IMG/VR virus record: IMGVR_UViG_3300005573_000054
Span: 32,001-96,000 of that record
Length of the DNA: 64,000 bases
DNA from: a virus
Strand: one strand, 5' to 3'
Shown: one piece after another, positions 6,092 through 26,780 of the stretch
How positions within the stretch are numbered: position 1 is the first letter of the stretch
How the letters are laid out: every line of letters starts with the position of its first letter
Translations under genes and position numbers: made by a program
Notes under the pieces: model-generated
Databases searched by the model: none
Seen by the model: only the letters and a program-made list of their open reading frames with translations
What the model was told of the DNA's origin: nothing

Positions 6092-6127
6092 GCCCCTCCC
6101 GAGCCGGACGGGAGGGGCACTTTTTTT
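6092..6127 (+). terminator. Intrinsic terminator
   Basis: 10-bp GC stem GCCCCTCCCG/CGGGAGGGGC followed by T7. Confidence 0.85.
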
Positions 6128-6131
6128 AAAA

Positions 6132-6181
6132 ACCCTATAGAGTAGCGGGGGGATGCTCTATAGGGTAATGATAAACCCCTT
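6132..6181 (+). promoter_or_regulatory. Hairpin/pseudoknot leader of the MoxR operon
   Basis: 13-bp stem 6132-6144/6154-6166; 9-nt loop GCGGGGGGA complementary to CCCCTT 6176-6181. Confidence 0.5.
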
Positions 6182-6200
6182 AAACCAAAAGGAGGTTGTC

Positions 6201-7202: not shown

Positions 7203-8479
7203 ATACAAGTACGCTTAGTGAAGACAAGTTGATAAGTGTACTCAAGGTACAGGCATTCAAGTACACTTCAATGAATAGAATTCTAGAATATGAAATCAAG
7301 TTGGAAGATCTGAAACAAGTGGCCCCGCAAATTGCGGGGTATATTGACGACAAGCACAAGATTGTTATTGACAAGAGTTTAACAAGGGATGAACAAGTAG
7401 CAGTATTAATACACGAGGCATTACACGATGTTCTAGATCACATCAAGAGAGGTATGCGTCTAGAAGTATTCAACCAGCAACGAGATCAAGCTTTATGGAA
7501 TCTAGCGACAGACTACGTGATTAACAAGATAATATTAAGTTTAAACCTCAAGAAACATCCAGAAATACTTAAGAATGTGATACAAGTAGTTGACAAGTTT
7601 AGACCTGATCCAGAAAGCGATACAAGCGCAGAAGCCTTGTATAGGCTTCTCAAGAACAAGACCGAAGTCCAAGTGGAGAAACTAGAAGTTCAAATTCCAG
7701 GACAGAATCAAGGTCAAGGAGAACCAGATTCAATCGAGATTGTCAAGACAAGCGTAATTAACAAGGAAACAGGAGAAGTATTACAAGAGTCAGTACAAGT
7801 CCTCATCAGCAAGGAAGAAGCACAAGAGAGAAGCGAAAATCAACAAGAGGGAAAACAAGTGGATATCTTCAAGCTTCAAGAAAGTTTGAAACAAGCGGGG
7901 AACTCGTCTTCCCAGATGCTTCAAGAAATCACAGCAGCAAAATCAAGACTTAGTCTCAAGAATGAGTTGTCAAGTTATTTCGACAACCTCAAAACTCAAG
8001 GTCTTGATATAAGTTTCTTCGCAAGATCACCAAGAAGTACCGTTATCTCCTCAAGTTGTGGGTATAATGTTCCAGCATACGTCAATCCAAGGACGAAGAT
8101 TCTAGTTGCAATTGATTCAAGTGGATCAATAAGCAACAAGGAGTACTCGGAGTTTCTAGGGGTTTTAAGGAGAAACCTCAAGTACATTTATGGAAAACTA
8201 GTGTTATTCGACACAGAAGCTCAAGTTTATGATTTAGATTCAAGAGCAGTAGAAACACTAGAAAGAAAAGGGACTTTCAAGAGGGTTTTCTGTGGAGGCA
8301 CAAGTTTACGAGAGACCTTTAAGATTATTGAACAAGAGAAATTCAAACTAGCAATTATCATGACGGATCTAGAAGTTACTATTCCAGAGAAACCTAAGAA
8401 GCTTTCCAAGGTGTTGTGGATCGTCCCGTCGATTGACGGGACAAAGTTGCCAAGTTATGGAAAGGTTATTCAAGTGTAA
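7199..8479 (+). CDS. HExxH metallopeptidase-like plus vWA domain protein (DUF2201-like), MoxR partner
   Basis: HEALH, WNLATDYVIN, MIDAS DSSGS, GGTS, MTD; ATGA overlap with the ATPase gene. Confidence 0.9.
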   Translation: MNTSTLSEDKLISVLKVQAFKYTSMNRILEYEIKLEDLKQVAPQIAGYIDDKHKIVIDKSLTRDEQVAVLIHEALHDVLDHIKRGMRLEVFNQQRDQALWNLATDYVINKIILSLNLKKHPEILKNVIQVVDKFRPDPESDTSAEALYRLLKNKTEVQVEKLEVQIPGQNQGQGEPDSIEIVKTSVINKETGEVLQESVQVLISKEEAQERSENQQEGKQVDIFKLQESLKQAGNSSSQMLQEITAAKSRLSLKNELSSYFDNLKTQGLDISFFARSPRSTVISSSCGYNVPAYVNPRTKILVAIDSSGSISNKEYSEFLGVLRRNLKYIYGKLVLFDTEAQVYDLDSRAVETLERKGTFKRVFCGGTSLRETFKIIEQEKFKLAIIMTDLEVTIPEKPKKLSKVLWIVPSIDGTKLPSYGKVIQV

Positions 8480-8506: not shown

Positions 8507-9748
8507 ATGAAAACGCCTACCTTCGAACAAGTAGTTGCTCAAGTACATGAAGGCAAGTTCTTTGAAGACAAGGAAATTCTTATGTTGAGAGACCAGTATG
8601 AAACAAGTATAGCTCACGAACAAGCTAGACAAGGTTGGACAACGAACGACAAGGAAATTCTCATGTTACAAGACAGAGTGGGGCGATCAGTCGCCCATAT
8701 TCAAGCAGAACGAGGTTGGACAACTGAAGACAAGGAAATTCTCGCGTTACAAGATGTAACAGGGCGAACAGTCGCCCACGAACAAGCTAGACAAGGTTGG
8801 ACAACCGAAGACAAGGAAATACTCGAGTTTGAAGATAATGGGAGACGAACAGTCGCCCATACTCAAGCAGAACGAGGTTGGATCACAGAAGACAAGAAGA
8901 TTCTCAAGCTTTACGACAGAAGTGGTACAAGTGTGGCTCACACTCAAGCTAGACAAGGATGGATTACTGAAGACAAGGAGATACTCGAGTTGAAAAACAC
9001 AAGCGGGTGGACAGTTGTCCACGAACAAGCAGAACAAGGGTGGACAACGGAAGACAAGGAGATGCTCAAGCTGAAGGATTACTATGGGCGATCAGTCGCC
9101 CATATTCAAGCTAAACGAGGGTGGACAACCGAAGACAAGGAAATACTCAAGTTGAAAGATAAGTATGGTACAAGTGTGGCTCATATTCAAGCAGAACGAG
9201 GCTGGATTATAGAAGACAAGGAAATACTCAAGTTAGAGAACAATCATGGTACAAGTGTGGCTCATATTCAAGCAGAACGAGGTTGGATAACAGAAGATCC
9301 AGAAATTCTCAAGCTTCACGATAAGAGTGGTACAAGTGTAGCTCATATTCAAGCAAAACAAGGATGGACTACTGAAGACAAGGAAATACTCAAGTTGAAA
9401 GATACAAGTGGGTGGAGTGTTGCCCACCAACAAGCAGATCAAGGATGGTCAACAGAAGACAAGGAAATCCTCAAGTTGGACAACGACCATGGTACAAGTG
9501 TAGCTCATATTCAAGCAGAACGAGGTTGGGTGTTTGAAGATCCAGAGATTCTAGTTTTGATCATTCGAGGCGGCTTGACGGTCGCCGAAGTTCAAGCACG
9601 TTATTCAGGTTGGACTCCAGGGGAAGAAGTCAAGGAAAAGTTCATACAAGAACTTCGGAAAAACTTTCCAGAAGAGAGAGTACAAGAAATACTTTACAAT
9701 GTTGATAATCTAGCGAAAGAATACTTCAAGAAAATCCTATCGAAATAG
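8507..9748 (+). CDS. 27-aa ankyrin-like repeat protein 1 (12 internal repeats)
   Basis: Repeat xDxxGx[TS]VAHxQAxxGWTTEDKEILKL with N-cap TFEQVVAQV.EGKFFED and a helical C-cap. Confidence 0.9.
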   Translation: MKTPTFEQVVAQVHEGKFFEDKEILMLRDQYETSIAHEQARQGWTTNDKEILMLQDRVGRSVAHIQAERGWTTEDKEILALQDVTGRTVAHEQARQGWTTEDKEILEFEDNGRRTVAHTQAERGWITEDKKILKLYDRSGTSVAHTQARQGWITEDKEILELKNTSGWTVVHEQAEQGWTTEDKEMLKLKDYYGRSVAHIQAKRGWTTEDKEILKLKDKYGTSVAHIQAERGWIIEDKEILKLENNHGTSVAHIQAERGWITEDPEILKLHDKSGTSVAHIQAKQGWTTEDKEILKLKDTSGWSVAHQQADQGWSTEDKEILKLDNDHGTSVAHIQAERGWVFEDPEILVLIIRGGLTVAEVQARYSGWTPGEEVKEKFIQELRKNFPEERVQEILYNVDNLAKEYFKKILSK

Positions 9749-9757
9749 GAGGTGAGA

Positions 9758-10273
9758 ATGAAAGTGTATACTTTCGAACAAGTAGTCGCTCAAGTGAATG
9801 AAGGCAAGTTCTTTGAAGATAAGGAAATCCTCAAGCTTTGCGACAAGAACGGGTGGACAGTCGCCCATGAACAAGCTTCTCAAGGCTGGACAACGGAAGA
9901 CAAGGAGATACTCAAGCTTTGTGATAAGAATGGTACAAGTGTGGCACATTTACAAGCGCTTCACAAGTGGACAACGAACGACAAGGAAATACTCAAGCTT
10001 TGTGACGAGTTCAAGGTGAGTGTTGCTCACGAACAAGCGTTTCGAGGATGGGTAACAGAAGATCCAGAAATTCTAGCTTTAGCTACCACAAGTAACTTCC
10101 TAGTAGCGAAAATTCAAGCATACTATTCGGGTTGGACTCCAGAAGGAGAAACTAGAGAAAAGTTTGTACAAGAACTTCAAAAGAATTTCCCAGTGGAGAA
10201 AGTACAAGAAATACTTTACGATATTGATGGTCTAGCAAAAGAGTATTTCAAGAAAATCTTATTCGGGAGGTAG
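9758..10273 (+). CDS. Repeat protein 2 (3 repeats)
   Basis: Same caps and repeat; RBS AGGAGGTG before ATG 9758. Confidence 0.9.
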   Translation: MKVYTFEQVVAQVNEGKFFEDKEILKLCDKNGWTVAHEQASQGWTTEDKEILKLCDKNGTSVAHLQALHKWTTNDKEILKLCDEFKVSVAHEQAFRGWVTEDPEILALATTSNFLVAKIQAYYSGWTPEGETREKFVQELQKNFPVEKVQEILYDIDGLAKEYFKKILFGR

Positions 10274-10276
10274 GAG

Positions 10277-11593
10277 ATGGAGATGTGTACTTTTAAGCAA
10301 GCAATTACTCAAGTAAATGAGGGTAAGTTCTTTGAAGACCCAGAAATCCTCAAGTTATATAATGTCTTCGGGCGGACAATCGCCCATGAACAAGCTTCTC
10401 AAGGCTGGATAACGGAAGACAAGGAGATACTCAAGTTAAAGGATGATCATGGTACAAGTGTAGCTCACGTTCAAGCAGAACATGGATGGACAACGGAAGA
10501 CAAGGAGATACTCAAGCTTCAAAATAACAGTGGGCTGACTGTTGCCCACAAACAAGCAGAACAAGGATGGACAACTGAAGATCCAGAGATTCTTAAGTTG
10601 TCCGACTGGTCAAGCTGGAGTGTTGCTCACACTCAAGCTAGACAAGGATGGACCACTGAAGACAAGGAGATACTCAAGTTACATAATATGTATGGGTGGG
10701 CGGTTGCCCACGAACAAGCTAAACAAGGTTGGATAACAGAAGACAAGGAAATTCTCAAGCTTCGCGACAAGAGTGGCACAAGCGTAGCTCATACACAAGC
10801 ATCTCGAGGATGGACTACAGAAGACAAGGAAATACTCATGTTACAAGACAGAATGGGGCGAACAGTCGCCCACGTTCAAGCAGATCAAGGTTGGACTACG
10901 GAAGACAAGGAAATTCTCAAGCTTCGCGACAAGAGTGGCACAAGCGTAGCTCATGTACAAGCATCTCGAGGATGGACAACGGAAGACAAGGAAATTCTCA
11001 TGTTGAAAGATAAGCATAATACAAGTGTAGCACATCTACAAGCAGAACGAGGATGGTCAACTGAAGACAAGGAGATACTCAAGTTAGAAGACGATCATGG
11101 TACAAGTGTTGCGTATAAACAAGCTAGACAAGGATGGATCACGAATGACGAGGAAATTCTCAAGCTTTGCGATGGGGGTGGCTGGTCCATCGCCCATAGA
11201 CAAGCTTCTCAAGGCTGGATAACTAATAACAAGGAGATACTCAAGTTGAAAGATAGATATGGTACAAGTGTAGCGCATTTACAAGCAGAACGAGGTTGGA
11301 CAACAGATGACAAGGAAATACTCAAGCTTCAAAATAACAGTGGGCTGACTGTTGCCCACAAACAAGCAGAACAAGGATGGACAACTGAAGATCCAGAGAT
11401 TCTTCTCCTCACGGAAAAACTAGGAGTCACTGTAGCCGAAGTTCAAGCAAGCTATTCAGGTTGGATATTAAGCGAAGACATTCAAGAAAAACTACGCCAA
11501 GAACCTTATAAGCTTAGTAAAGAGAAGCTTAACAAGTTAATATCATCAGTTAACGAAGCTTCAAGGCGATTCTTCAAGAATGCTCTAAAATAA
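10277..11593 (+). CDS. Repeat protein 3 (13 repeats)
   Basis: Same family; C-cap class SEDIQEKLRQEPY. Confidence 0.9.
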   Translation: MEMCTFKQAITQVNEGKFFEDPEILKLYNVFGRTIAHEQASQGWITEDKEILKLKDDHGTSVAHVQAEHGWTTEDKEILKLQNNSGLTVAHKQAEQGWTTEDPEILKLSDWSSWSVAHTQARQGWTTEDKEILKLHNMYGWAVAHEQAKQGWITEDKEILKLRDKSGTSVAHTQASRGWTTEDKEILMLQDRMGRTVAHVQADQGWTTEDKEILKLRDKSGTSVAHVQASRGWTTEDKEILMLKDKHNTSVAHLQAERGWSTEDKEILKLEDDHGTSVAYKQARQGWITNDEEILKLCDGGGWSIAHRQASQGWITNNKEILKLKDRYGTSVAHLQAERGWTTDDKEILKLQNNSGLTVAHKQAEQGWTTEDPEILLLTEKLGVTVAEVQASYSGWILSEDIQEKLRQEPYKLSKEKLNKLISSVNEASRRFFKNALK

Positions 11594-11607
11594 AAGGAGG
11601 TGGGAAA

Positions 11608-12366
11608 ATGGGAGTATGTGTCACTTTCGAACAAGTAGTCGCTCAAGTGAATGAAGGCAAGTTCTTCGAAGACCCAGAAATCCTCAAGCTTTATAACGAG
11701 AACGGGTGGAGTGTTGCCCATGAACAAGCGGATCAAGGATGGATAACGGAAGACAAGGAAATACTCAAATTAAAAAACAAGTATAACATAAGTGTAGCTT
11801 ATGTTCAAGCGTTCCGAGGATGGACAACAGAGGATCCAGAAATACTCAAGATTCAGGACAAGAACGGGTGGACTATCGCCCACGAACAAGCGGTTCGAGG
11901 ATGGACAACTGAAGACAAGGAAATACTTATGTTAAAAGATAAGTTTGGAACAAGTGTTGCCCATGAACAAGCGAAACAAGATTGGGTAACTGAAGACAAG
12001 GAAATACTTATGTTAAAAGACCAACACGGAACAAGTGTTGCTTATATTCAAGCTAGACGAGGATGGACAACTGAAGACAAGGAAATACTTAAACTAGAAG
12101 ACGATCAAGGTGTAACTGTAGCTCATGTTCAAGCAGAGCAAGGTTGGACGACAGAAGATCCAGAGATTCTAGTCTTGGCCACTTATGATGGCGTAACAGT
12201 GGCCGAAGTTCAAGCAGAACATTCAGGATGGGAGCTAGAAGGAGAGACCAGGGAAAGGTTTATTCAAGAGCTTCAAAAGAACTTTTCAAAGAGAAAAGCG
12301 CAAGAAGTACTTCACAATGTTGACAAGATGAGGAAAAAGTACTTCAAGGAAGCTCTGTTGGAATAA
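11608..12366 (+). CDS. Repeat protein 4 (6 repeats)
   Basis: Same family; RBS AAGGAGGTG. Confidence 0.9.
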   Translation: MGVCVTFEQVVAQVNEGKFFEDPEILKLYNENGWSVAHEQADQGWITEDKEILKLKNKYNISVAYVQAFRGWTTEDPEILKIQDKNGWTIAHEQAVRGWTTEDKEILMLKDKFGTSVAHEQAKQDWVTEDKEILMLKDQHGTSVAYIQARRGWTTEDKEILKLEDDQGVTVAHVQAEQGWTTEDPEILVLATYDGVTVAEVQAEHSGWELEGETRERFIQELQKNFSKRKAQEVLHNVDKMRKKYFKEALLE

Positions 12367-12370
12367 TAAG

Positions 12371-12460
12371 ATGAGACGAGACAATGTTCCAATATACAAT
12401 CAAGTAGTCACTCAAGTAAACAAGAAACACACAAGAGAAGATTTAATCTCAAGCCCTTAA
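12371..12460 (+). pseudogene. N-cap remnant of a repeat-protein gene
   Basis: MRRDNVPIYNQVVTQVNK resembles the N-cap MNRNDTLMYKQVIAQVNK of the 16674 paralog, then stops. Confidence 0.55.
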
Positions 12461-12484
12461 TTTTTCTGTTAAGAGGTAGAGAAC

Positions 12485-12919
12485 ATGAAAGCGTGTCTTT
12501 TTGAACAAGTAGTTGCTCAAGTAAATGAAGGTAAGTTTTTTGAAGACAAAGAGATACTCAAGCTTCACGACGAGGACGGACGAACAGTTGCCCACGTTCA
12601 AGCAGAACAAGGTTGGATTACAGAAGACAAGGAAATACTCAAGTTGAAAGATATAAGCGGGTGGACAGTTGCCCACCAACAAGTGGTTCGAAGATGGATA
12701 ACAGAAGACCCAGAGATTCTAGTTTTGGCTACCATAAGAAACATCCTAGTGGCAGAAGTTCAAGCATGTTATTCAGGTTGGACCCCAGAAGAGGAAACCA
12801 GGGAAAAGTTCGTGCAAGAACTTCGGAAGAATTTTCCAGAGGAGAAAGCACAAGAGATACTTCACAATGTTGATAGTCTAGCAAAAGAGTATTTCAAGAA
12901 AATCTTATTCGGGAGGTAG
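12485..12919 (+). CDS. Repeat protein 5 (2 repeats)
   Basis: Same family. Confidence 0.88.
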   Translation: MKACLFEQVVAQVNEGKFFEDKEILKLHDEDGRTVAHVQAEQGWITEDKEILKLKDISGWTVAHQQVVRRWITEDPEILVLATIRNILVAEVQACYSGWTPEEETREKFVQELRKNFPEEKAQEILHNVDSLAKEYFKKILFGR

Positions 12920-12922
12920 GAG

Positions 12923-13678
12923 ATGGAGATGTGTACTTTTAAGCAAGCAATTACTCAAGTAAATGAGGGTAAGTTCTTTGAAGATAAAGAGATACTCAAG
13001 CTTTGCAACGGGAACGGGTGGAGTGTTGCCCATGAACAAGCATTTCGAGGATGGACAACAGAAGACAAGGAAATCCTCATGTTGTATGATGATACTGGGT
13101 GGACTGTCGCCCATGAACAAGCTTCTCAAGGTTGGACAACAGAGGATCCAGAAATTCTCAAGTTTTGCGATGATGTTGGACAGACTGTCGCCCACGTTCA
13201 AGCATCTCGAGGATGGACAACCGAAGACAAGGAAATACTCAAGCTTCAAAATGACAGTGGGTGGACAGTCGCCCATGAACAAGCAAGCAGAAGATGGACA
13301 ACGAACGACGAGGAAATCCTCAAGTTAAAAGACAACCACGAGTGGACTGTTGCCCATATTCAAGCTAGACGAGGATGGATAACTGAAAACAAGGAAATAC
13401 TCAAGTTGAAAGACGATCGTGGTACAAGTGTAGCTTATGTTCAAGCATCTCAAGGATGGATAACAGAAGATCCAGAAATTCTAGTCTTGGCCACTCACGA
13501 TGACATAACAGTAGCCGAGGTTCAAGCTAAATACTCAGGATGGGAACCAGAAGGGGAAGTCAAGGAAAAGTTTGTGCAAGAACTCCAGAAAAACTTTTCA
13601 AAGAAGAAGATACAAGAAATACTTCAGGATATCAACGAGTTGAGGAAAAAGTATTTCGAGAGAATCTTATTAGTGTAA
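12923..13678 (+). CDS. Repeat protein 6 (6 repeats)
   Basis: Same family. Confidence 0.9.
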   Translation: MEMCTFKQAITQVNEGKFFEDKEILKLCNGNGWSVAHEQAFRGWTTEDKEILMLYDDTGWTVAHEQASQGWTTEDPEILKFCDDVGQTVAHVQASRGWTTEDKEILKLQNDSGWTVAHEQASRRWTTNDEEILKLKDNHEWTVAHIQARRGWITENKEILKLKDDRGTSVAYVQASQGWITEDPEILVLATHDDITVAEVQAKYSGWEPEGEVKEKFVQELQKNFSKKKIQEILQDINELRKKYFERILLV

Positions 13679-13817
13679 CGAGATAAATCAAGATAAACAA
13701 ACAAGAAATATCAAAGAAAGAACCATTATAATTGTTTAATAAGTTTTTTCGTGTTGAAGTTACAAGAAAATTTTTCCAAAAATATCTCAAAAAATCTTAT
13801 AGACGGGAGGTGAGGAA

Positions 13818-14810
13818 ATGGAAGCGTATACTTTTGAACAAGCAATCACTCAAGTGAATGAAGGTAAGTTTTTCGAAGACAAGGAGATACTTAAACTTCA
13901 CGATGAGAATGGGTGGACTGTTGCCCATGAACAAGCTAAACGAGGGTGGACAACTGAAGATAAGGAGATCCTCAAGCTTCACGATAAATCATGGCGAAGT
14001 GTAGCCCATGAACAAGCGAAACGAGGATGGACAACAAATAACAAGGAGATACTCATGTTACGTGACACTTTCAGATGGTCTGTTGCTCATATTCAAGCAG
14101 AACATGGGTGGACAACTGAAAATAGAGAGATTCTCAAGTTGTTCGACTGGTCCAACTGGACTGTCGCCCATGAACAAGCAAGACGAGGGTGGACAACTGA
14201 AGACAAGGAAATTCTTAGACTTTATAGCGACTATGGATATACTGTAGCTTATATCCAAGCAAAACATGGATGGATAACAAATGACAAAGAAATACTCAAA
14301 TCGAAAGATAAGTATGATACAAGTGTAGCGCATCTACAAGCAAAACATGGCTGGACCACCGAAGATAAGGAGATACTCAAGCTTTATGATAAGAATAAGT
14401 GGTCTGTTGCTCATGAACAGGCAAGACAAGGATGGACTACTGAAGATAAGGAAATCCTCAAGTTAGAAGACAATTGTGGTACAAGTGTCGCTCATATTCA
14501 GGCAGAACAAGGATGGACAACTAAAGATAAGGAGATACTCAAGTTGCATGATGTCTGTGGGTGGACAGTCGCCCATGAACAAGCTAAACGTGGTTGGATA
14601 ACTGAAGATCCAGAGATTCTTCTTTTCGCAGAAAGACTGGGAGTCACTGTTGCAGAAATTCAGGTAGAATATTCAGGCTGGACACTAAGCGAAGACATCC
14701 AAGAAAAACTACGGCAAGAACCTTACAGACTCAGTGAAGAGGAGTTTAACAAGTTAATGTCGTCAATCAACGAAGCTTCAAGACGGTTCTTCAAGAATAC
14801 TCTAAGATAG
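13818..14810 (+). CDS. Repeat protein 7 (9 repeats)
   Basis: Same family; RBS GGGAGGTG. Confidence 0.9.
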   Translation: MEAYTFEQAITQVNEGKFFEDKEILKLHDENGWTVAHEQAKRGWTTEDKEILKLHDKSWRSVAHEQAKRGWTTNNKEILMLRDTFRWSVAHIQAEHGWTTENREILKLFDWSNWTVAHEQARRGWTTEDKEILRLYSDYGYTVAYIQAKHGWITNDKEILKSKDKYDTSVAHLQAKHGWTTEDKEILKLYDKNKWSVAHEQARQGWTTEDKEILKLEDNCGTSVAHIQAEQGWTTKDKEILKLHDVCGWTVAHEQAKRGWITEDPEILLFAERLGVTVAEIQVEYSGWTLSEDIQEKLRQEPYRLSEEEFNKLMSSINEASRRFFKNTLR

Positions 14811-14824
14811 AAGGAGGCGGGAAA

Positions 14825-15817
14825 ATGGAAGCGTATACTTTCGAACAAGCAATCACTCAAGTGAATGAAGGCAAGTTCTTCGAAGATAAGGAGATACTCA
14901 AACTTCACAATAAGAATGGGTGGACTGTAGCCCATGAACAAGCGGAGCATGGTTGGACAACTGAAGACAAGGAGATACTTAGACTTTGCGACAAGAATGG
15001 GTGGACTGTGGCCCATGAGCAAGCTAGACGAGGGTGGACTACTGAAGACAAAGAGATACTCAAGTTGAGAGATCAGTACGGAGTAAGTGTCGCTCATATT
15101 CAAGCAGAACGAGGATGGACAACCGAAGACAAGGAGATACTCATGTTACGTAATATTTATGGGTGGACTGTTGCCCATGAGCAAGCTAGACAAGGGTGGA
15201 CAACTGAAGACCCAGAGATTCTTTTTCTCGTAGATAGACTAGAAATCACTGTAGCTGAAATACAAGCAAAACATGGATGGATGACAAATGATAAAGAAAT
15301 ACTCAAATTGAAAGATATGTACGGCACAAGTGTAGCACATTTTCAAGCAGAACATGGTTGGACTACAGAAGACAAGGAGATACTCAAGCTTTGTGATAAG
15401 AATAACTGGTTTGTTGCTCACGAACAAGCGAAACGAGGATGGACGACTGAAGACAAAGAGATACTCAAGTTAGATGACGATCAAGGTGTAAGTGTCGCTC
15501 ATATTCAAGCAGAACGAGGATGGACAACTGAAGACAAAGAGATACTCATGTTGCGTAATATCTATGGGTGGACTGTTGCCCATGAACAAGCTAGACAAGG
15601 GTGGACAACTGAAGATCCAGAGATTCTAGTCTTAGCCACTCGTGATAACTTAATGGTAGCCGAAGTTCAAGCAAGCTATTCAGGCTGGACACTAAGCGAA
15701 GACATTCAAGAAAAACTGCGACAAGAACCTTATAGACTTAGTGAAGAGGAGCTTAACAAGTTAATGTCGTCAATCAACGAAGCTTTAAGACGGTTCTTTA
15801 AGAATGTTCTAAGATAA
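14825..15817 (+). CDS. Repeat protein 8 (9 repeats, one being an internal terminal-type VAEIQA unit)
   Basis: Same family. Confidence 0.9.
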   Translation: MEAYTFEQAITQVNEGKFFEDKEILKLHNKNGWTVAHEQAEHGWTTEDKEILRLCDKNGWTVAHEQARRGWTTEDKEILKLRDQYGVSVAHIQAERGWTTEDKEILMLRNIYGWTVAHEQARQGWTTEDPEILFLVDRLEITVAEIQAKHGWMTNDKEILKLKDMYGTSVAHFQAEHGWTTEDKEILKLCDKNNWFVAHEQAKRGWTTEDKEILKLDDDQGVSVAHIQAERGWTTEDKEILMLRNIYGWTVAHEQARQGWTTEDPEILVLATRDNLMVAEVQASYSGWTLSEDIQEKLRQEPYRLSEEELNKLMSSINEALRRFFKNVLR

Positions 15818-15831
15818 AAGGAGGTGAGAAA

Positions 15832-16677
15832 ATGGAAACATATACTTTTGAACAAGCGATTGCCCAAGTGGATAAAGGTAAGTTTTTCGAAGACAAGGAG
15901 ATACTTAAACTTCACGACGAAAACGGGTGGACTGTTGCCCATAAACAAGCTAAGTATGGTTGGACAACTGAAAACAAGGAGATACTCAAGTTAAAGGATA
16001 ACCGTGGTATAAGTGTAGCCCATGAACAAGCTAAACGAGGGCGGACAACAGAAGACCCAGAGATTCTTAAGTTGTCCGACTGGTCCAGATGGACTGTTGC
16101 TCATATTCAAACAGAACATGGGTGGACAACTGAAGACAAGGAAATACTCAAGTTAAACGACAAATGGGAACGGGCTGTGGCCTACATTCAAGCTAGATAT
16201 GGATGGACTACAGAAGACAAGGAAATACTCAAGTTAAGAGACAACCATGGGCGGTCTGTTGCCCACGAACAAGCGGAGCTAGGATGGACAACGGAAGACA
16301 AGGAAATTCTCAAACTTTGTAACAAGAGCGGTACAAGCGTAGCACATTTACAAGCGGAACAAGGATGGACTACAGAAGACCCAGAAATCCTCAAGCTTTG
16401 CAATAAGTACGGTGTAAGTGTAGCTCATGAACAAGCTAAACGTGGTTGGATAACTGAAGATCCAGAGATCCTAGTTTTAGCCGCCACAGGAAACTTCCTA
16501 GTAGCAGAAGTTCAAGCAGAGTATTCAGGTTGGAAACCAGCGGAGGAAGTCGAGGAAAAGTTCGTGCGAGAACTTCAGAAGAATTTTCCAGAGGAGAAAG
16601 TACAAGAAATACTTCATAATATTGATGATCTAGCAAAAAATATTTCGAGAAAATCTTGTTTGGGAGGTAGGAGATGA
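15832..16677 (+). CDS. Repeat protein 9 (7 repeats; -1 frameshift in the last codons)
   Basis: Same family; the A-run at ~16635-16640 is one base short relative to paralog ends LAK.YF.KILFGR*. Confidence 0.88.
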   Translation: METYTFEQAIAQVDKGKFFEDKEILKLHDENGWTVAHKQAKYGWTTENKEILKLKDNRGISVAHEQAKRGRTTEDPEILKLSDWSRWTVAHIQTEHGWTTEDKEILKLNDKWERAVAYIQARYGWTTEDKEILKLRDNHGRSVAHEQAELGWTTEDKEILKLCNKSGTSVAHLQAEQGWTTEDPEILKLCNKYGVSVAHEQAKRGWITEDPEILVLAATGNFLVAEVQAEYSGWKPAEEVEEKFVRELQKNFPEEKVQEILHNIDDLAKNISRKSCLGGRR

Positions 16678-17834
16678 ATCGAAACGACACTCTAATGTAT
16701 AAACAAGTAATTGCTCAAGTAAATAAGGGTAAGCTCTTCGAAGACAAGGAGATACTCAAGCTTTGTGATAAGTACGGTACAAGTGTAGCTCACGTTCAGA
16801 CAGAACGAGGGTGGACAACCGAAGATAAGGAAATTCTTACACTTCATAAAAAGTCTGGATGGACTGTTGCCCATCAACAGGCAGAACGTGGATGGACAAC
16901 AAATAACAAGGAGATACTCAAGCTTTGCAACAAAAGCGGTATAAGTGTAGCTCACGTTCAAGCTAAACATGGGTGGACAACTGAAGACAAGGAAATACTC
17001 AAGCTTCATGATGACTTTGGGCGGACTGTAGCTCATGAACAAGCTAAACAAGGATGGACCACTGAAGACAAAGAAATACTCGAACTTTGTGATGTCACTG
17101 GATGGACTGTAGCTCATGAACAAGCTAAACAAGGATGGACTACTGAAGACAAAGAAATACTCGAACTTTGTGATGATTCTGTATGGACTGTAGCTCATGA
17201 ACAAGCTAAACAAGGATGGACTACTGAAGACAAGGAAATACTCGAACTTTGTAATGACGATGGATGGTTTGTTGCCCATGAACAAGCTAAACATGGGTGG
17301 ACAACTGAAGACAAGGAAATACTCAAGCTTCATGATGACTCTGGATGGACTGTAGCTCATGAACAAGCTAAACAAGGATGGACTACTGAAGACAAGGAGA
17401 TACTTAAACTATGTAACAACCCTGGATGGACTGTAGCTCATGAACAAGCTAAACAAGGATGGACTACTGAAGACAAGGAGATACTCAAGTTAAGAAACCA
17501 GTATGATCGGACTGTTGCTCATGAACAAGCTTCTCACGGATGGACGATAGAAAACAAGAAAATACTTAAGTTGAAAGATAAACATGGTACAAGTGTAGCA
17601 CATTTACAGGCAGAGCAAGGATGGACAACAGAAGATCCAGAAATCCTTTTACTCACAGATAAATCAGGGACTACCGTCGCAGAAATTCAAGCAAGGCGTT
17701 CAGGTTGGTTACCAAGTGAAGACACTCAAGAAAAGATACGGCAAGAGCTCTGTAAATCTGCGGTAAGGAGGTTCAACAGTTTAATAACAGCTGCTTCGAA
17801 AAAGTTTTTCCAACAGACTCTGAAAGGAGAGTAA
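16674..17834 (+). CDS. Repeat protein 10 (11 repeats)
   Basis: Same family; central units homogenised to WTVAHEQAKQGW. Confidence 0.9.
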   Translation: MNRNDTLMYKQVIAQVNKGKLFEDKEILKLCDKYGTSVAHVQTERGWTTEDKEILTLHKKSGWTVAHQQAERGWTTNNKEILKLCNKSGISVAHVQAKHGWTTEDKEILKLHDDFGRTVAHEQAKQGWTTEDKEILELCDVTGWTVAHEQAKQGWTTEDKEILELCDDSVWTVAHEQAKQGWTTEDKEILELCNDDGWFVAHEQAKHGWTTEDKEILKLHDDSGWTVAHEQAKQGWTTEDKEILKLCNNPGWTVAHEQAKQGWTTEDKEILKLRNQYDRTVAHEQASHGWTIENKKILKLKDKHGTSVAHLQAEQGWTTEDPEILLLTDKSGTTVAEIQARRSGWLPSEDTQEKIRQELCKSAVRRFNSLITAASKKFFQQTLKGE

Positions 17835-17867
17835 TATAGAAACCACAACCTAAATGAGGTAAAGAAA

Positions 17868-18461
17868 ATGAAAGTATTTACTTTTAAGCAAGCGGTTGCC
17901 CAAGTAACTAAAGGTAAGTTCTTTGAAGATAAAAAAATCCTCAAGCTTCACGACAAGAACGGGTGGACTGTTGCCCATGAACAAGCGAAGCGAGGATGGA
18001 CCACCGAAGACAAGGAAATACTCAAGCTTTGTGATAAGTACGGAGTGAGTGTAGCCTATGAACAAGCGAGACATGGCTGGACCACTGAAGACAAGGAAAT
18101 TCTCAAGCTTTGCAACAAAAGCGGTACAAGTGTAGCTCATATACAAGCGAGATATGGCTGGACTACTGAAGATAAGGAGATACTCAAGCTTCGTAATAAG
18201 TACGGTACAAGTGTAGCACACGAACAAGCGTACCGAGGATGGGTAACAGAAGACCCTGAGATTCTAGTTTTAACTACCATAAGTAACTTCCTAGTAGCAA
18301 AAGTTCAAGCATGTTATTCAGGTTGGACTCCTGAAGGGGAAACCAGAGAAAAGTTCGTACAAGAACTCCAAAAGAATTTCCCAGTGGAGAAAGTACAAGA
18401 AATACTTTACGATATTGATGATCTAGCAAAAAAGTATTTCAAGAAAATTTTGTTAGAATAG
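17868..18461 (+). CDS. Repeat protein 11 (4 repeats)
   Basis: Same family; C-cap nearly identical to that of protein 2. Confidence 0.9.
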   Translation: MKVFTFKQAVAQVTKGKFFEDKKILKLHDKNGWTVAHEQAKRGWTTEDKEILKLCDKYGVSVAYEQARHGWTTEDKEILKLCNKSGTSVAHIQARYGWTTEDKEILKLRNKYGTSVAHEQAYRGWVTEDPEILVLTTISNFLVAKVQACYSGWTPEGETREKFVQELQKNFPVEKVQEILYDIDDLAKKYFKKILLE

Positions 18462-18472
18462 GAGGTGAGAAA

Positions 18473-19384
18473 GTGGAGTCGTATACTTTTGAACAAGCGT
18501 TTATTCAAGTACTTAGTGGCAAATTTTTCCAGGACAAAGAAATACTTAAATTATATAACGAAGATGGACGGACTATTGCTCATGAACAAGTAAGACAAGG
18601 ATGGAGAACAGAAGATAAAGAGATACTCAATTTATATGACAAAGATAGATGGACTGTTGCCCATCAACAGGCAGAACGTGGATGGACAACAAATAACAAG
18701 GAGATACTCAAGCTTTGTGATAAGTACGGTACAAGTGTAGCTCACGTTCAAGCAGAACACAGATGGACTACTGAAGACAAGGAAATACTCAGGCTTTGCA
18801 ACGACTCTGGACGAACAGTCGCTCATATTCAAGCATCTCATGGATGGACTACAGAAGACCTAGAAATCCTCAAGCTTTGTGGTAATCTTGAATGGACTGT
18901 CGCTCATGAACAAGCAAAACAAGGATGGACAACAGAAGATCCAGAAATCCTCAAGCTTTGCGACAAGAACGGGTGGACTGTGGCTCATGAACAAGCACGC
19001 CAAGGATGGACTACTGAAGACAAGGAGATACTCAAACTTCGCGACAAGACCGGGTGGACTGTTGCTCACGAACAAGCAGATCGAGGTTGGACAACAGATG
19101 ACAAGGAGATACTCAAGTTATGTAATATCTTTGGTCGGTTTATCGCTCATGTACAAGCGCTTCGAGGATGGACCACAGAGGATCCAGAGATTCTAGTCTT
19201 GGCCGCTTTTAACAACTTAACAGTAGCAGAAGTTCAAGCAGAACATTCAGGATGGGAACCGGAAGGAGAAGTCAAGGAAAAGTTCGTACAAGAACTTCAG
19301 GAGAACTTTCCTAAGGAAATAGTACAAGAAATACTCTGTAACATTGATAAGTTGAGGAAAAAGTATTTCAAGAGAATCTTATAA
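18473..19384 (+). CDS. Repeat protein 12 (8 repeats), GTG start
   Basis: Same family; RBS AGGAGGTG. Confidence 0.9.
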   Translation: MESYTFEQAFIQVLSGKFFQDKEILKLYNEDGRTIAHEQVRQGWRTEDKEILNLYDKDRWTVAHQQAERGWTTNNKEILKLCDKYGTSVAHVQAEHRWTTEDKEILRLCNDSGRTVAHIQASHGWTTEDLEILKLCGNLEWTVAHEQAKQGWTTEDPEILKLCDKNGWTVAHEQARQGWTTEDKEILKLRDKTGWTVAHEQADRGWTTDDKEILKLCNIFGRFIAHVQALRGWTTEDPEILVLAAFNNLTVAEVQAEHSGWEPEGEVKEKFVQELQENFPKEIVQEILCNIDKLRKKYFKRIL

Positions 19385-19399
19385 ACGGGAGGTGAGAAA

Positions 19400-19588
19400 A
19401 TGGAAACATATATTTTTAAGGAAGTAATCATTCAGGCAAAACGCTCAGGATGGATGTTGAATGAAGATATTCAAGAAAAACTACAACAAGAACCTTGTAA
19501 ATTTAACGAAGAAAGATATAATAAATTAGTATTATCAACTAATAAAGCTTCAAGACAATTCTTCCAAAATATCCTAAAAAAAGAGTAA
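19400..19588 (+). CDS. Repeat protein 13: N-cap fused directly to C-cap (zero repeats)
   Basis: METYIFKEVIIQ joined to AKRSGWMLNEDIQEKLQQEP...; intact RBS GGGAGGTG. Confidence 0.75.
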   Translation: METYIFKEVIIQAKRSGWMLNEDIQEKLQQEPCKFNEERYNKLVLSTNKASRQFFQNILKKE

Positions 19589-19593
19589 CAAAA

Positions 19594-20472
19594 ATGAATA
19601 TAAGAAACTATAATCTAAGCGACGAAGAAATTCTAGAATTACCTATTGAGAAACAACGTCTAGTTGCGTATGCCCAAGTTCAACGTGGGTGGACCACAGA
19701 AAACAAAACAATCCTCCAACTCTCTTTATACTGGGGACGAACAATAGCTCATGAACAAGCCAGACAAGGATGGACAACAGAAGATAAAGAAATACTTACA
19801 ACAGTAGATATTTTTGGAGAATATGTAGCTCATATTCAAGCGCAGAATGGCTGGGTTACGGAAGATCCAGAGATTCTTAAACTTGCTAACAAAGAAAAAC
19901 AAACAGTTGCTCATATTCAAGCAGAACAAGGATGGACAACAAATAACAAGGAAATTCTCAAACTTTGTAACTCTAGAAAATGGACTGTTGCCCATATTCA
20001 AGCTAGACGAGGATGGACAACTGAAGACATAGAAATCCTCAAGTTAACTAACAAGCTTGGTCAGTCCGTCGCTTTTTTCCAGGCAATGAATGGATGGACT
20101 ACAGAGAATCTAGAAATACTCAAACTTCACGATAAAAATGGGTGGACTGTTGCCCATGAACAAGCTAGACGTGGATGGACTACAGAAAATTTCAAGATTC
20201 TTAAACTAGCTGACAAAAATGGATGGACTGTTGCTCATGAACAAGCTAAGCGTGGATGGATTACAAGAGATTTAAGAGTTCTTACTATCAAAGATATGAG
20301 AAACAATACAGTAGCTGAAATACAAGCAAAACACTCTGGATGGACTCCTGATGATGAACTCGAGAAGAAGTTACTTCAAAAGCTTCGAAAACGTTCTGTA
20401 GAAGAAGCATCAAGAGTGTTGAAATCAATAAACGATTTATCTCTAGAGTTTTTTAGAAACGCCTTTAGATAG
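19594..20472 (+). CDS. Repeat protein 14 (divergent caps)
   Basis: Same 27-aa repeat. Confidence 0.88.
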   Translation: MNIRNYNLSDEEILELPIEKQRLVAYAQVQRGWTTENKTILQLSLYWGRTIAHEQARQGWTTEDKEILTTVDIFGEYVAHIQAQNGWVTEDPEILKLANKEKQTVAHIQAEQGWTTNNKEILKLCNSRKWTVAHIQARRGWTTEDIEILKLTNKLGQSVAFFQAMNGWTTENLEILKLHDKNGWTVAHEQARRGWTTENFKILKLADKNGWTVAHEQAKRGWITRDLRVLTIKDMRNNTVAEIQAKHSGWTPDDELEKKLLQKLRKRSVEEASRVLKSINDLSLEFFRNAFR

Positions 20473-20486
20473 TAAGGAGGTATAAA

Positions 20487-21335
20487 ATGGATGAAGATCG
20501 GTCTCAAATTCAAATTATGGAAAAGAAGTATCCTAAAAAGAAACTTCTAGAAATTGTTGATGAGACTCTGAAGAAAACTCTTGCACATGAGTTAGCCATC
20601 CAAGGAATGATTACAACTTCAAGAAAGATTTTACTTACCGCTGATAGAAATGGGAGAACTGTTGCCCATTATCAAGCTCTCTCTGGATATGTAGTTACAG
20701 AATCAGATATTTTAAAACTTGCTGATCTATGTGGAACGACGGTTGCACATCTACAGGCAAGTAAGGGATGGACTACAAAATCAAAAAAGATCTTAAAACT
20801 AGCTGATATAGATGGATGGTCAGTAGCTCATGAAATAGCTAGCAAAGGACACTTTTTTCCAGAAACTCAAAAGGAAGTTTTAAAAATCAGCGATATAAGC
20901 GGGTGGACTGTTGCCCATGAACAGGCAAGTAGAGGATGGATAACAAACGACAAGGAAATCCTCAGTCTTTCTACTCTTAGGGGATGGACTGTTGCTCATG
21001 AACAAGCAAAACATAAATGGACCACAGAAGATCCAGAGATACTAATGTTGAGAGATAAAGAGAAGTGGTCTGTGGCACATGAGCAAGCGTATCAAGGATG
21101 GACTACAAATGATATTAATATCCTTAAAATACGTGATGCTCTTGGAGTGTGTGTGTCTATGGTTCAGATCGAAGTTTCTGGGTGGATTTATCCTTCCAGT
21201 TTGGAAGAAAAGTTTTCCCGAGATTGTTTGTCTCTTATGAAGAAGATTTACACCAAAAAGGGTATTAATATGTTCCCGGAGGAGGAAAAAGATGGAAAGG
21301 AAGTTAAAACCAAGACAAGTAGTTTGCTCTTGTAA
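20487..21335 (+). CDS. Repeat protein 15 (most divergent in the array)
   Basis: GWTVAHEQA-type repeats, different termini. Confidence 0.85.
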   Translation: MDEDRSQIQIMEKKYPKKKLLEIVDETLKKTLAHELAIQGMITTSRKILLTADRNGRTVAHYQALSGYVVTESDILKLADLCGTTVAHLQASKGWTTKSKKILKLADIDGWSVAHEIASKGHFFPETQKEVLKISDISGWTVAHEQASRGWITNDKEILSLSTLRGWTVAHEQAKHKWTTEDPEILMLRDKEKWSVAHEQAYQGWTTNDINILKIRDALGVCVSMVQIEVSGWIYPSSLEEKFSRDCLSLMKKIYTKKGINMFPEEEKDGKEVKTKTSSLLL

Positions 21336-21609
21336 AAACTGTGGAGTAACATTTTCTTATGAAACAATATCAGGAACTCGTAGAAAATACTGTTCAGAAA
21401 AATGTAGAAAAGAGTCATTTGAAAGACGTCTTCAAAATAGAGTTTCCAGACCAAGAAAAAAGTCACTCGAGAACAAAAAAATATTTATCTGTCCTAAGTG
21501 TAGAAAGAAACATAATGATGGATACAAAGATTATAAAAACTCTTTAGAAAAACCTAAGTGGAAGTACTGTTATGAATGTAAAAGATTAGTCTCACAGTAT
21601 AACTTATGA
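21292..21609 (+). CDS. Small basic zinc-finger protein
   Basis: CKNC..YCSEKC, CPKC and CYEC motifs; GGAGG RBS. Confidence 0.75.
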   Translation: MERKLKPRQVVCSCKNCGVTFSYETISGTRRKYCSEKCRKESFERRLQNRVSRPRKKSLENKKIFICPKCRKKHNDGYKDYKNSLEKPKWKYCYECKRLVSQYNL

Positions 21610-26757: not shown

Positions 26758-26780
26758 AACTAAAAAACAGAGGCCATTTG

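What the first reader, a model, noticed from the sequence alone, without database searches (positions are those of the whole stretch)
8507..21335. Phage-encoded natural DARPin-like repertoire: 15 tandem variable 27-aa repeat proteins (plus one orphan)
Seen: 13 kb of head-to-tail paralogs. The first 13 share an N-cap, 0-13 copies of a 27-aa (81-bp) unit and one of two or three C-cap classes; the last two have divergent caps. The framework (D..G.[TS]VAH.QA..GWTTEDKEILKL) is nearly invariant, while variation concentrates in xDxxGx, the residue after H, and the two residues before GW. Known: the ankyrin/DARPin consensus is xDxxGxTPLHLAAxxG, and DARPin libraries randomise those x positions on the binding face; true ankyrin repeats are 33 aa. 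Inference: a shortened ankyrin-like solenoid used as a diversified binder library, for example against host defence proteins or other variable host targets.
Basis: partly seen in the sequence, partly recalled or inferred. Interest (0 to 1): 0.92.

Follow-up and report, generated by a model that had tools for sequence, protein, structure and literature searches.

The report
Jumbo-phage array of mini-ankyrin genes
An uncultured giant bacteriophage carries 15 neighbouring genes plus one stray copy for proteins built from a shortened, 27-residue version of the ankyrin repeat; almost every repeat differs on the face that ankyrins use for binding, so this is probably a set of varied protein binders, a phage counterpart of the ankyrin gene families of poxviruses and giant viruses.

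Summary
Window 8507-21335 holds 15 head-to-tail + strand genes, and a sixteenth lies at 26778-27665. All are built from a strict 81-bp (27-aa) unit: 118 units in the array and 8 in the orphan. Four independent metagenome assemblies reproduce the array.

The fold reading is supported. An AlphaFold2 model has pLDDT 97.5, and every top match in PDB, BFVD and the ESM Atlas is an ankyrin or DARPin. A profile of the repeat also reaches proteins that Pfam calls ankyrin. The window's own proteins get no Pfam Ank hit, and their period is 27, not 33.

The variable sites are unit positions 9, 11, 12, 14, 22 and 23, plus 19. In the hhalign register the first six are the positions randomised in DARPins. 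On nearest-unit pairs pN/pS is 0.81 there and 0.05 in the framework. Of 98 internal units, 96 have a unique surface code.

A related phage keeps the flanking genes but has a different set of array genes. Gene relics, a zero-repeat gene, a fused gene and an allele with one extra repeat point to birth-and-death by unequal recombination.

The binder function, anti-defence or otherwise, is inferred and not shown. The host is unknown. Verdict: a new variant of a known kind.

The parts
8507..9748 (+). Gene 1, 413 aa: N-cap, 12 internal 27-aa units, a cap-like last unit and a class A C-tail
   Evidence: GGAGG ribosome-binding site upstream
9752..10273 (+). Gene 2, 173 aa (171 aa if it starts at the ATG two codons in): 3 internal units plus cap unit, class A tail
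10277..11593 (+). Gene 3, 438 aa: 13 internal units plus cap unit, class B tail; units 2 and 12 are near-identical
11608..12366 (+). Gene 4, 252 aa: 6 internal units plus cap unit, class A tail. This is the protein that was modelled. In assembly L011 an allele has one more repeat and different first units.
   Evidence: model and fold hits; allele
12371..12460 (+). Relic of an N-cap (reads MRRDNVPIYNQVVTQVNKK... and then stops), in the 118-bp gap between genes 4 and 5
12485..12919 (+). Gene 5, 144 aa: 2 internal units plus cap unit, class A tail
12923..13678 (+). Gene 6, 251 aa: 6 internal units plus cap unit, class A tail. Its junction and 5' end are identical to those of gene 3 over 62 nt.
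13679..13817 (+). 139-bp gap that holds a degraded C-tail remnant (reads ...RKFFQKYLKK... in one frame)
13818..14810 (+). Gene 7, 330 aa: 9 internal units plus cap unit, class B tail
14825..15817 (+). Gene 8, 330 aa: 9 units plus cap unit, class B tail. It contains an internal cap-like unit (about 15206-15286), the trace of a fusion of two genes, and a 405-bp internal duplication.
15832..16677 (+). Gene 9, 281 aa: 7 internal units plus cap unit, class A tail. The last 14 codons are frameshifted by a 1-nt deletion.
16674..17834 (+). Gene 10, 386 aa: 11 internal units plus cap unit, class C tail. Units 3-8 are recently amplified (81% matches at period 81).
17868..18461 (+). Gene 11, 197 aa: 4 internal units plus cap unit, class A tail
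18473..19384 (+). Gene 12, 303 aa: 8 internal units plus cap unit, class A tail
19400..19588 (+). Gene 13, 62 aa: N-cap joined directly to a class B-like tail, with no repeats (a deletion product)
19594..20472 (+). Gene 14, 292 aa: 8 internal units plus cap unit, divergent N-terminus
20487..21335 (+). Gene 15, 282 aa: about 7 looser units (one spacing is 56 aa), both ends divergent
26778..27665 (+). Orphan paralog, 295 aa: 8 units, its own N- and C-ends. An ortholog is present in metagenome locus L023.
6153..8479 (+). Upstream AAA+ ATPase gene (6153-7202) and DUF2201 metallopeptidase/VWA gene (7199-8479). The same synteny is seen in the related phage locus L015 and in L011. They are probably in one transcription unit with the array.
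   Evidence: terminator-like hairpin at 6092-6118 and no strong + strand terminator inside the array

Best explanation
The array is a multigene family of soluble cytoplasmic proteins. Each is a solenoid of ankyrin-type repeats shortened from 33 to 27 residues.

Each unit has a beta-hairpin (unit positions 9-15, xDxxGx[TS]), an inner helix (16-22, VAHxQAx), a GWTT loop, and an outer helix cut down to one or two turns (EDKEILKL). The six residues that are missing relative to canonical ankyrin come from the outer helix and the loop that follows it.

The framework is held by strong purifying selection. The hairpin tip and one stripe of the inner helix, which form the canonical ankyrin target-binding face, differ in nearly every unit.

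New genes and new repeat combinations arise by unequal recombination and gene conversion between 81-bp units and between gene junctions.

The most likely role (inferred, not shown) is a repertoire of protein binders made in the infected cell. These would sequester or inhibit varied host proteins such as defence or takeover targets, as the ankyrin host-range families of poxviruses and giant viruses are thought to do.
For: Shown here:
- The period is strictly 27 aa, and all 16 reading frames are intact. Each of the 15 array genes has a GGAGG-type ribosome-binding site.
- The AF2 model of gene 4 has pLDDT 97.5 and pTM 0.90. Its secondary structure repeats every 27 residues.
- The Foldseek PDB top 50 are all ankyrin or DARPin entries with probability 1.00. 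VIA-align gives Z 9.3-11.9, again all ankyrin. The BFVD top hits are giant-virus and poxvirus proteins, most of them named ankyrin. The ESM Atlas gives TM up to 0.73, all ankyrin. The language-model neighbours are Ank clusters, and the first is a Uroviricota cluster.
- hhalign against a typed ankyrin consensus aligns D10, G13, T15, H18, A21 and G24 with ankyrin positions D1, G4, T6, H9, A12 and G15, and puts the 6-residue gap in helix 2.
- The repeat profile finds 832 clusters among 1.84 billion representatives. Ten of 54 longer hits match a Pfam Ank model at E 0.001 or lower. Of the three scanned individually, P0077 (28-aa repeats), P0117 and P0120 each score above a Pfam gathering cut-off.
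- pN/pS on nearest-unit pairs is 0.05 in the framework, 0.28 at intermediate sites and 0.81 at the variable sites. Synonymous change is plentiful everywhere.
- 96 of 98 internal units have a unique 7-residue surface code, rich in R, E, K, Q, W, Y and H.
- Turnover: the related phage locus L015 keeps the AAA-VWA flank (VWA 86% identical, dS 0.69, omega 0.10) but has array genes of 174, 557, 85, 204, 259, 307 and 242 aa. There is an extra-repeat allele in L011. Relics, a frameshifted tail, a fused gene and a zero-repeat gene are also present.
- Relatives are multi-copy on other mobile elements: the Deferribacter megaplasmid pDF308 (39 places) and a second phiKZ-like jumbo-phage contig. Several metagenome loci also hold tandem arrays of them.

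Inferred from established knowledge: in ankyrin repeats the hairpin tips and the inner-helix surface form the concave binding face, and DARPin libraries randomise positions 2, 3, 5, 13, 14 and 33.
Against: No binding partner, expression data or host is known.

pN/pS at the variable sites is below 1. Neutral drift of an unconstrained surface is therefore not excluded.

Differences between repeats at these positions are typical of any ankyrin protein.

Model coordinates could not be inspected. That the variable sites form one surface rests on the secondary-structure register and on analogy with ankyrin, not on measured exposure.

The window's proteins get no hit to any Pfam Ank model, even at E up to 10.

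The VIA Z-scores of 9-12 lie below the tool's caution level of about 13 for helical repeats.

The AF2 alignment consisted largely of paralogs.
Confidence: 0.68

Rival explanations
1. Gene-dosage accordion. The paralogs all do one job, binding one target or one class of target. They were amplified for dosage, and the surface differences are near-neutral drift.
For: pN/pS at the variable sites is about 0.8 and not above 1. Gene 10 holds six recently amplified near-identical units. Genomic accordions of ankyrin genes are described in giant viruses (PMC5871332).
Against: Synonymous divergence between units is large (pS about 0.37 even between nearest neighbours), so the family is old and not a recent amplification. 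96 of 98 surface codes are unique. Exposed charged framework residues such as E1, D2, E4 and K3 stay conserved, so exposure alone does not explain where the variation lies.
Confidence: 0.15
2. Virion-internal or ejected proteins. Some jumbo phages carry tandem paralog families that are packed in the head and delivered with the DNA.
For: The phage is a distant phiKZ-like jumbo myovirus with split multisubunit RNA polymerase genes and a tail sheath. That group is known, from the literature, to package paralogous internal proteins.
Against: The array lies among RNA polymerase, nucleotide-metabolism and ATPase genes, not in the structural block. The array proteins match no PHROG virion family. This rival is compatible with a binder role after ejection, so it is not fully exclusive of the best explanation.
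Confidence: 0.08
3. Effectors aimed at a eukaryote that hosts the bacterium, like ANKp of sponge-symbiont phages or the ankyrin genes of Wolbachia phage WO.
For: Phage-encoded ankyrins with that role are published (bioRxiv 10.1101/608950).
Against: The N-termini read directly have no hydrophobic signal-peptide-like stretch. Relatives sit in a free-living hydrothermal-vent Deferribacter megaplasmid, in archaeal MAGs and in another jumbo phage.
Confidence: 0.05
4. The array is non-functional repeat DNA or an assembly artefact.
For: Metagenome assemblers can mis-join repeats. Locus L014 shows such a loop: gene 5 is followed by a copy of gene 3.
Against: Assemblies from four samples agree almost base for base over several kb. 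All 16 frames are open and the 15 array genes have strong ribosome-binding sites. Framework pN/pS is 0.05.
Confidence: 0.02

Closest known systems
Ankyrin repeat superfamily (Pfam clan with Ank, Ank_2, Ank_3, Ank_4, Ank_5) and consensus-designed DARPins
   Same: The motif D-x-x-G-x-[TS]-x-x-H-x-x-A-x-x-G is shared. So is the architecture of hairpin, inner helix and outer helix stacked into a solenoid (predicted). The variable positions align with those that DARPin libraries randomise. All structural neighbours are ankyrins or DARPins.
   Different: The period is 27 residues, not 33. The outer helix is cut to one or two turns and the GADVN-type loop is missing. P-L is replaced by V-A, and A-A by Q-A. 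A conserved GWTTED loop is present. No Pfam Ank model detects the window's proteins.
Ankyrin multigene families of poxviruses and giant viruses (for example 148 tandem copies in Bodo saltans virus, PMC5871332)
   Same: These are directional tandem arrays of ankyrin-type paralogs with variable repeat number in a large dsDNA virus. They show signs of recent duplication and gene disruption, and they are interpreted as arms-race binders. They are also the best BFVD structural hits.
   Different: Here the virus is a bacteriophage and the repeat is the 27-aa form. No F-box or PRANC domain was found; instead there are three short helical C-tails of the family's own. The array lies at least 40 kb from either end of the contig held, not at a visible terminus.
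Hypothetical proteins of Deferribacter desulfuricans SSM1 megaplasmid pDF308 (DEFDS_P111, P112, P147, P154, P155, P201)
   Same: They have the same 27-aa repeat and the same N-cap type (M.YE.A...V..GHFFEDKE.LKL) and are 46-53% identical. They are multi-copy on one mobile replicon, with 39 tblastn places.
   Different: Their C-terminal domain is different and longer, about 100 aa, and ends in N-I-C. The genes are scattered among IS200/IS605 elements rather than forming one tight operon-like array. The replicon is a plasmid, not a phage.
Paralog arrays of jumbo phages, and tandem ankyrin arrays of symbiotic bacteria noted earlier in this scan
   Same: Large head-to-tail families with a conserved scaffold and variable surface, taken to be host-interaction toolkits (AI notes, used as leads only).
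   Different: Those phage arrays have a different, unmatched fold. Those bacterial ankyrin arrays use canonical repeats and are mostly exported.

Membership tests
Ankyrin repeat (Pfam Ank clan) | Repeat length of about 33 residues | tested here: not met
   The period is strictly 27 aa (81 bp) in genes 1-12 and in most relatives.
Ankyrin repeat (Pfam Ank clan) | Match to a Pfam ankyrin HMM above its gathering score | tested here: not met
   hmmscan of six array proteins at E up to 1 lists no Ank family. Ank_2 and Ank_4 searched over the whole 159-kb record at E up to 10 find nothing, while the control genomes give hits.
Ankyrin repeat (Pfam Ank clan) | Core motif G-x-T-P-L-H-x-A-A-x-x-G preceded by a D/N-x-x hairpin | tested here: met
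   The units read xDxxGx[TS]VAHxQAxxG. hhalign puts them in register with a typed ankyrin consensus: probability 56%, pairwise E 1e-4, with a 6-residue gap in helix 2.
Ankyrin repeat (Pfam Ank clan) | Hairpin plus two antiparallel helices per repeat, stacked into an L-shaped solenoid | tested here: met
   This holds on a predicted model only. AF2 gives pLDDT 97.5 with a pattern of helix, bridge, loop, bridge, helix every 27 residues. All top hits in PDB, BFVD and the ESM Atlas are ankyrins.
Ankyrin repeat (Pfam Ank clan) | Sequence continuity with recognised members | tested here: met
   The profile of the 27-aa units hits P0077 at E 3e-47. The same 28-aa repeats of P0077 score 50 bits on Ank_2, where the cut-off is 27.3. 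Ten of 54 long hits match a Pfam Ank model at E 0.001 or lower.
Ankyrin repeat (Pfam Ank clan) | Target binding through the concave face | not testable with these tools
Poxvirus / giant-virus ANK host-range families | Tandem multi-copy ankyrin paralogs with variable repeat number | tested here: met
   There are 15 tandem genes with 0-14 units each. The gene set differs in the related phage locus L015.
Poxvirus / giant-virus ANK host-range families | C-terminal F-box-like (PRANC) adaptor | tested here: not met
   No Pfam hit on the C-tails. The tails are 40-45-aa two-helix segments of three classes.
Poxvirus / giant-virus ANK host-range families | Location at the genome termini | tested here: inconclusive
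   The array lies at 40.5-53.3 kb of a 159-kb linear record that CheckV rates about 50% complete.
Secreted symbiont/phage ankyrins (ANKp type) | N-terminal signal peptide | tested here: not met
   The N-termini read directly (MKTPTFEQVVAQVHEGKFFEDKE and the like) are polar helices with no hydrophobic core. No signal-peptide predictor was run.
Diversity-generating retroelement target | Nearby reverse transcriptase with a template/variable repeat pair | tested here: inconclusive
   No RVT_1 match at E up to 1 in the 159 kb held. About half of the genome is missing. The pattern of about 100 different units does not resemble a template/variable repeat pair.

The most novel reading that the evidence does not exclude
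The array is a phage counter-defence or host-takeover repertoire built on a natural minimal ankyrin scaffold of 27 residues. Each paralog would neutralise a different host protein, and new specificities would be made by shuffling 81-bp cassettes. That would make it a prokaryotic-virus counterpart of the poxvirus host-range ankyrins and a ready-made, shorter DARPin-like scaffold. The conserved outer face (GWTTEDKEILKL) and the C-tails might dock to a common partner.
Probability: 0.3. Interest if true: 0.8.

Novelty: new variant of a known kind. Interest (0 to 1): 0.58.

Why it matters
Ankyrin multigene families are a hallmark of poxviruses and giant viruses of eukaryotes. A comparable fast-turning-over array in a jumbo bacteriophage, with relatives on a megaplasmid and in a second jumbo phage, suggests that large mobile elements of prokaryotes use the same strategy.

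The repeat appears to be a regular ankyrin-type unit six residues shorter than the canonical one. No Pfam Ank model detects the window's own proteins. The profile search finds about 830 clusters at 50% identity that carry this repeat or close variants of it. It could deserve its own family model.

The repeat may also interest protein engineers as a compact binder scaffold with a highly conserved framework.

If targets can be found, the array gives a set of natural inhibitors of unknown host proteins.

Tried and rejected
- Megablast and tblastn against 50,697 GenBank phage records gave no match. The queries were the array as DNA, gene 11, and the relative P0008.
- The IMG/VR scans with gene 11 and with the unit profile found no other viral contig. 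The first attempt, with alignment A1, failed for lack of conserved columns.
- The GTDB genome scan found only one Spirochaetaceae MAG. It used exact peptide patterns, so it undercounts.
- A PDB sequence search with the family profile gave only chance-level hits.
- NCBIfam and PADLOC gave nothing for the array proteins.
- The Pfam hits listed for the array proteins (Ig_NUP210_16th, zf-C3HC, P3A and others) have no individually significant stretch. They are sums over repeats, and I reject them as spurious.
- 'DUF4116' appears in a UniRef name for one Deferribacter homolog. Pfam did not confirm it, either for that protein or for the window's proteins.
I therefore have no read-level polymorphism, expression data or sample description.
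- A functional link between the array and the upstream AAA+ / VWA-metallopeptidase pair was considered. The synteny is conserved in L015 and L011. However, the same pair occurs in N4-like phages whose matches show no such array, and the second jumbo phage has its relatives next to other genes. I treat the link as unproven.
- A DGR mechanism was considered. No reverse transcriptase was found.
- Locus L014 seemed to show a rearranged gene order. It is more simply an assembly loop through the identical 5' ends of genes 3 and 6.
- The long minus-strand ORFs inside the array (for example 16692-17375) are shadows of the repeat and have no support as genes.
- No literature was found on a 27-residue ankyrin variant.


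Full report
**Context.** The window is bases 32001-96000 of a 159,483-bp linear IMG/VR virus record that CheckV rates about 50% complete. PHROG matches show a jumbo contractile-tailed phage. There are two split multisubunit RNA polymerase beta-like genes, a family-B-type DNA polymerase of 1311 aa, a DnaB-like helicase, a tape-measure protein, a baseplate wedge protein, an 893-aa tail sheath and tail fibre proteins. The nearest cultured relatives by tail sheath are jumbo phages of Listeria, Yersinia and Staphylococcus, at 27-30% identity. 'Phage-encoded' is therefore correct. The host is unknown.

**The observation.**
- Fifteen co-directional genes fill 8507-21335, and a sixteenth lies at 26778-27665.
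- The VAHxQA anchor recurs at exactly 27 residues in genes 1-12, with only small irregularities in genes 14, 15 and the orphan.
- Tandem Repeats Finder and the repeat finder see the 81-bp period throughout.
- Extracted in register, there are 118 units in the array and 8 in the orphan.
- Genes 1-13 share an N-cap. The last unit of each gene is a distinct cap-like variant: EDPEIL, then a hydrophobic stretch, VAE in place of VAH, and SGW in place of GW. It is followed by one of three classes of two-helix tail, 40-45 residues long.
- Gene 13 is an N-cap fused directly to a tail, with no repeat.
- Every array gene has a GGAGG-type ribosome-binding site, and most gaps between genes are 3-15 nt.
- A strong terminator-like hairpin at 6092-6118 precedes an AAA+ ATPase gene and a DUF2201 metallopeptidase/VWA gene. 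These run into the array with no strong + strand terminator.
- Four other assemblies from ENA and JGI samples carry the same genes, almost all identical at the protein level. The array is therefore not an assembly artefact.

**Where the variation lies.**
- I count from the E of EDKEILKL.
- Amino-acid entropy is 2.2-3.3 bits at positions 9, 11, 12, 14, 19 and 22 and 1.7 bits at position 23. It is intermediate at 1, 3, 7, 10, 13, 15 and 26, and 0.5 bits or less at the other positions.
- Synonymous differences are common at the invariant positions, so the framework is conserved by selection and not by recent duplication.
- On 101 minimum-spanning-tree edges between nearest units (window plus L015), pN/pS is 0.05 for the framework, 0.28 for the intermediate sites and 0.81 for the seven variable sites.
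But omega does not exceed 1, so positive selection is not shown.
- Positions 14, 15 and 19 co-vary: W-T-E against T-S-I/L/V. This may reflect contact or shared ancestry.
- Of 98 internal units, 96 have a unique code at the seven sites. The sites are rich in R, E, K, Q, W, Y and H.

**Fold.**
- AlphaFold2 on gene 4, with a 40-sequence alignment of paralogs and metagenomic homologs, gave pLDDT 97.5 and pTM 0.90.
- Each unit has a short helix at positions 3-6, a bridge at 9, a loop at 10-14, a bridge at 15, a seven-residue helix at 16-22 and a loop at 23-27.
- Positions 9, 11, 12 and 14 therefore sit in the hairpin. Positions 19, 22 and 23 form an i, i+3, i+4 stripe on the inner helix.
- The Foldseek top 50 in PDB are all ankyrin or DARPin chains at probability 1.00. 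A second look with VIA-align gives Z 9.3-11.9, with a DARPin first. This is under the tool's caution level for helical repeats, but there is not a single non-ankyrin entry.
- BFVD returns giant-virus and poxvirus proteins, most of them named ankyrin. The ESM Atlas returns ankyrin clusters with TM up to 0.73. The language-model neighbours are ankyrin clusters, and the first is a cluster of tailed-phage proteins.

**Sequence relation to ankyrin.**
- Pfam's ankyrin models do not detect the window's proteins, either by hmmscan or over the whole genome at E up to 10. PDB sequences give nothing either.
- hhalign of a three-unit alignment against a typed ankyrin consensus gives the register D10=D1, G13=G4, T15=T6, H18=H9, A21=A12, G24=G15, with a six-residue gap in the second helix.
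- In this register the variable positions 9, 11, 12, 14, 22 and 23 are ankyrin positions 33, 2, 3, 5, 13 and 14, the set randomised in DARPins (established knowledge). Position 19 is ankyrin position 10.
- The unit profile searched against 1.84 billion representatives finds 832 clusters at E 0.001 or lower, and 78 at E 1e-30 or lower.
- Among the longer hits are proteins with 28- to 34-residue versions of the repeat. Ten of 54 match a Pfam Ank model at E 0.001 or lower. Three of them (P0077, P0117, P0120), scanned individually, score above a Pfam gathering cut-off, and in P0077 the match is on the same repeats.
- The family is therefore a short-period branch of the ankyrin superfamily. It fails two formal membership criteria, length and the Pfam HMM.

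**Relatives and turnover.**
- The closest relatives are metagenomic hypothetical proteins, six or more paralogs on the Deferribacter desulfuricans megaplasmid pDF308, and proteins of archaeal and bacterial MAGs.
- The genome paper for that megaplasmid does not mention them.
- No GenBank phage and no other IMG/VR contig has them.
- A metagenome scan returned 21 loci. Many hold tandem arrays with the same 27-aa period, some next to ParA, ThyX, ribonucleotide reductase or SbcD genes.
- One 199-kb contig (FLOH01000148.1) is a second phiKZ-like jumbo phage.
- Locus L015 is a fragment of a related phage. It has the same AAA and VWA genes (VWA 86% identical, dS 0.69, omega 0.10). It is followed by array genes of 174, 557, 85, 204, 259, 307 and 242 residues, with no one-to-one correspondence to the window's genes.
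- Within the window's own population, assembly L011 has a gene 4 allele with one extra repeat, novel first units, and a VR-to-DQ change at positions 22-23 of one unit. All neighbouring genes are identical.
- An N-cap relic at 12371-12460, a tail relic in 13679-13817, a frameshifted tail in gene 9, a cap-like unit inside gene 8 and the repeat-less gene 13 record deletions and fusions.
- Gene junctions (tail end, ribosome-binding site, N-cap) are shared between gene pairs.
- Together these show birth-and-death evolution by unequal recombination and gene conversion.

**Mechanism.**
- Shown: the sequence anatomy, the selection pattern and the turnover. The solenoid fold is predicted with high confidence, not determined.
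- Inferred: the variable face binds targets, different paralogs bind different targets, and the targets are host proteins.
- The proteins lack signal-peptide-like N-termini, so they should act in the infected cell's cytoplasm.
- I put about 0.68 on 'ankyrin-type binder repertoire acting on host or phage proteins'. Within that, I put roughly 0.3 on a counter-defence or host-range role.
- Rivals are a dosage accordion with one target, packaged internal proteins, effectors against a eukaryote, and an artefact. Each is weighed in the Rival explanations section.

**Novelty.**
- Tandem ankyrin families are well known in poxviruses and giant viruses (PMC5871332). Phage ankyrins are known (bioRxiv 10.1101/608950), and the Atlas holds phage ankyrin clusters.
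- Earlier notes of this scan also list tandem ankyrin arrays in bacteria and other paralog arrays in jumbo phages. The same stretch was read twice before.
- What is new here is the regular 27-residue form of the repeat, unrecognised by the curated models tried here, and a 16-gene array of it in a jumbo phage.
- I rate it a new variant of a known kind, of moderate-to-good interest.

Noticed in passing
window 45609-47573 (+): A 654-aa protein made of roughly 53-aa repeats. Long acidic blocks (DDEDIEDDEEE...) alternate with basic blocks (KRGRKKGRRSRKKK) and a conserved WYDLLEA motif. Its base composition (GC 0.425, AT skew 0.28) resembles that of the ankyrin array. It lies between the DnaB-like helicase gene and the baseplate genes.
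   Followed up: partly
window 12371-12460, 13679-13817 and 16630-16677: Decay products of the family: a truncated N-cap relic, a degraded C-tail relic, and a 1-nt deletion that frameshifts the last 14 codons of gene 9.
   Followed up: yes
window 6153-8479 (+); L015 3-1915: An AAA+ (MoxR/CobS-like) ATPase gene is translationally coupled to a DUF2201 metallopeptidase/VWA gene directly upstream of the array. The synteny is kept in a related phage. The same pair occurs in N4-like phages whose matches show no ankyrin genes. Whether it works together with the array is open.
   Followed up: partly
window 4501-5166 and 30250-31689 (+): GTP cyclohydrolase-like and QueC-like genes. They suggest 7-deazaguanine-type DNA modification, a known anti-restriction strategy of phages.
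   Followed up: no
window 44-1237 and 2557-4491 (+): Split multisubunit RNA polymerase beta-like genes, as in phiKZ-like jumbo phages. I did not check whether this phage also has a phage-nucleus shell protein.
   Followed up: no
window 21292-21609 (+): A 105-aa protein with four CxxC pairs (zinc-ribbon-like). Its start overlaps the end of gene 15 by 44 nt.
   Followed up: no
L018-L022, L024 (metagenome contigs): A second subfamily of the 27-aa repeat has its own N-cap (M.NFIEDKRIL...). It also forms tandem arrays, next to ParA, ThyX, ribonucleotide reductase and SbcD-like genes on unidentified mobile elements.
   Followed up: partly
L014 2678-3286: In this assembly gene 5 is followed by a copy identical to gene 3, not by gene 6. 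This is most simply an assembly loop through the 62 nt that genes 3 and 6 share.
   Followed up: yes
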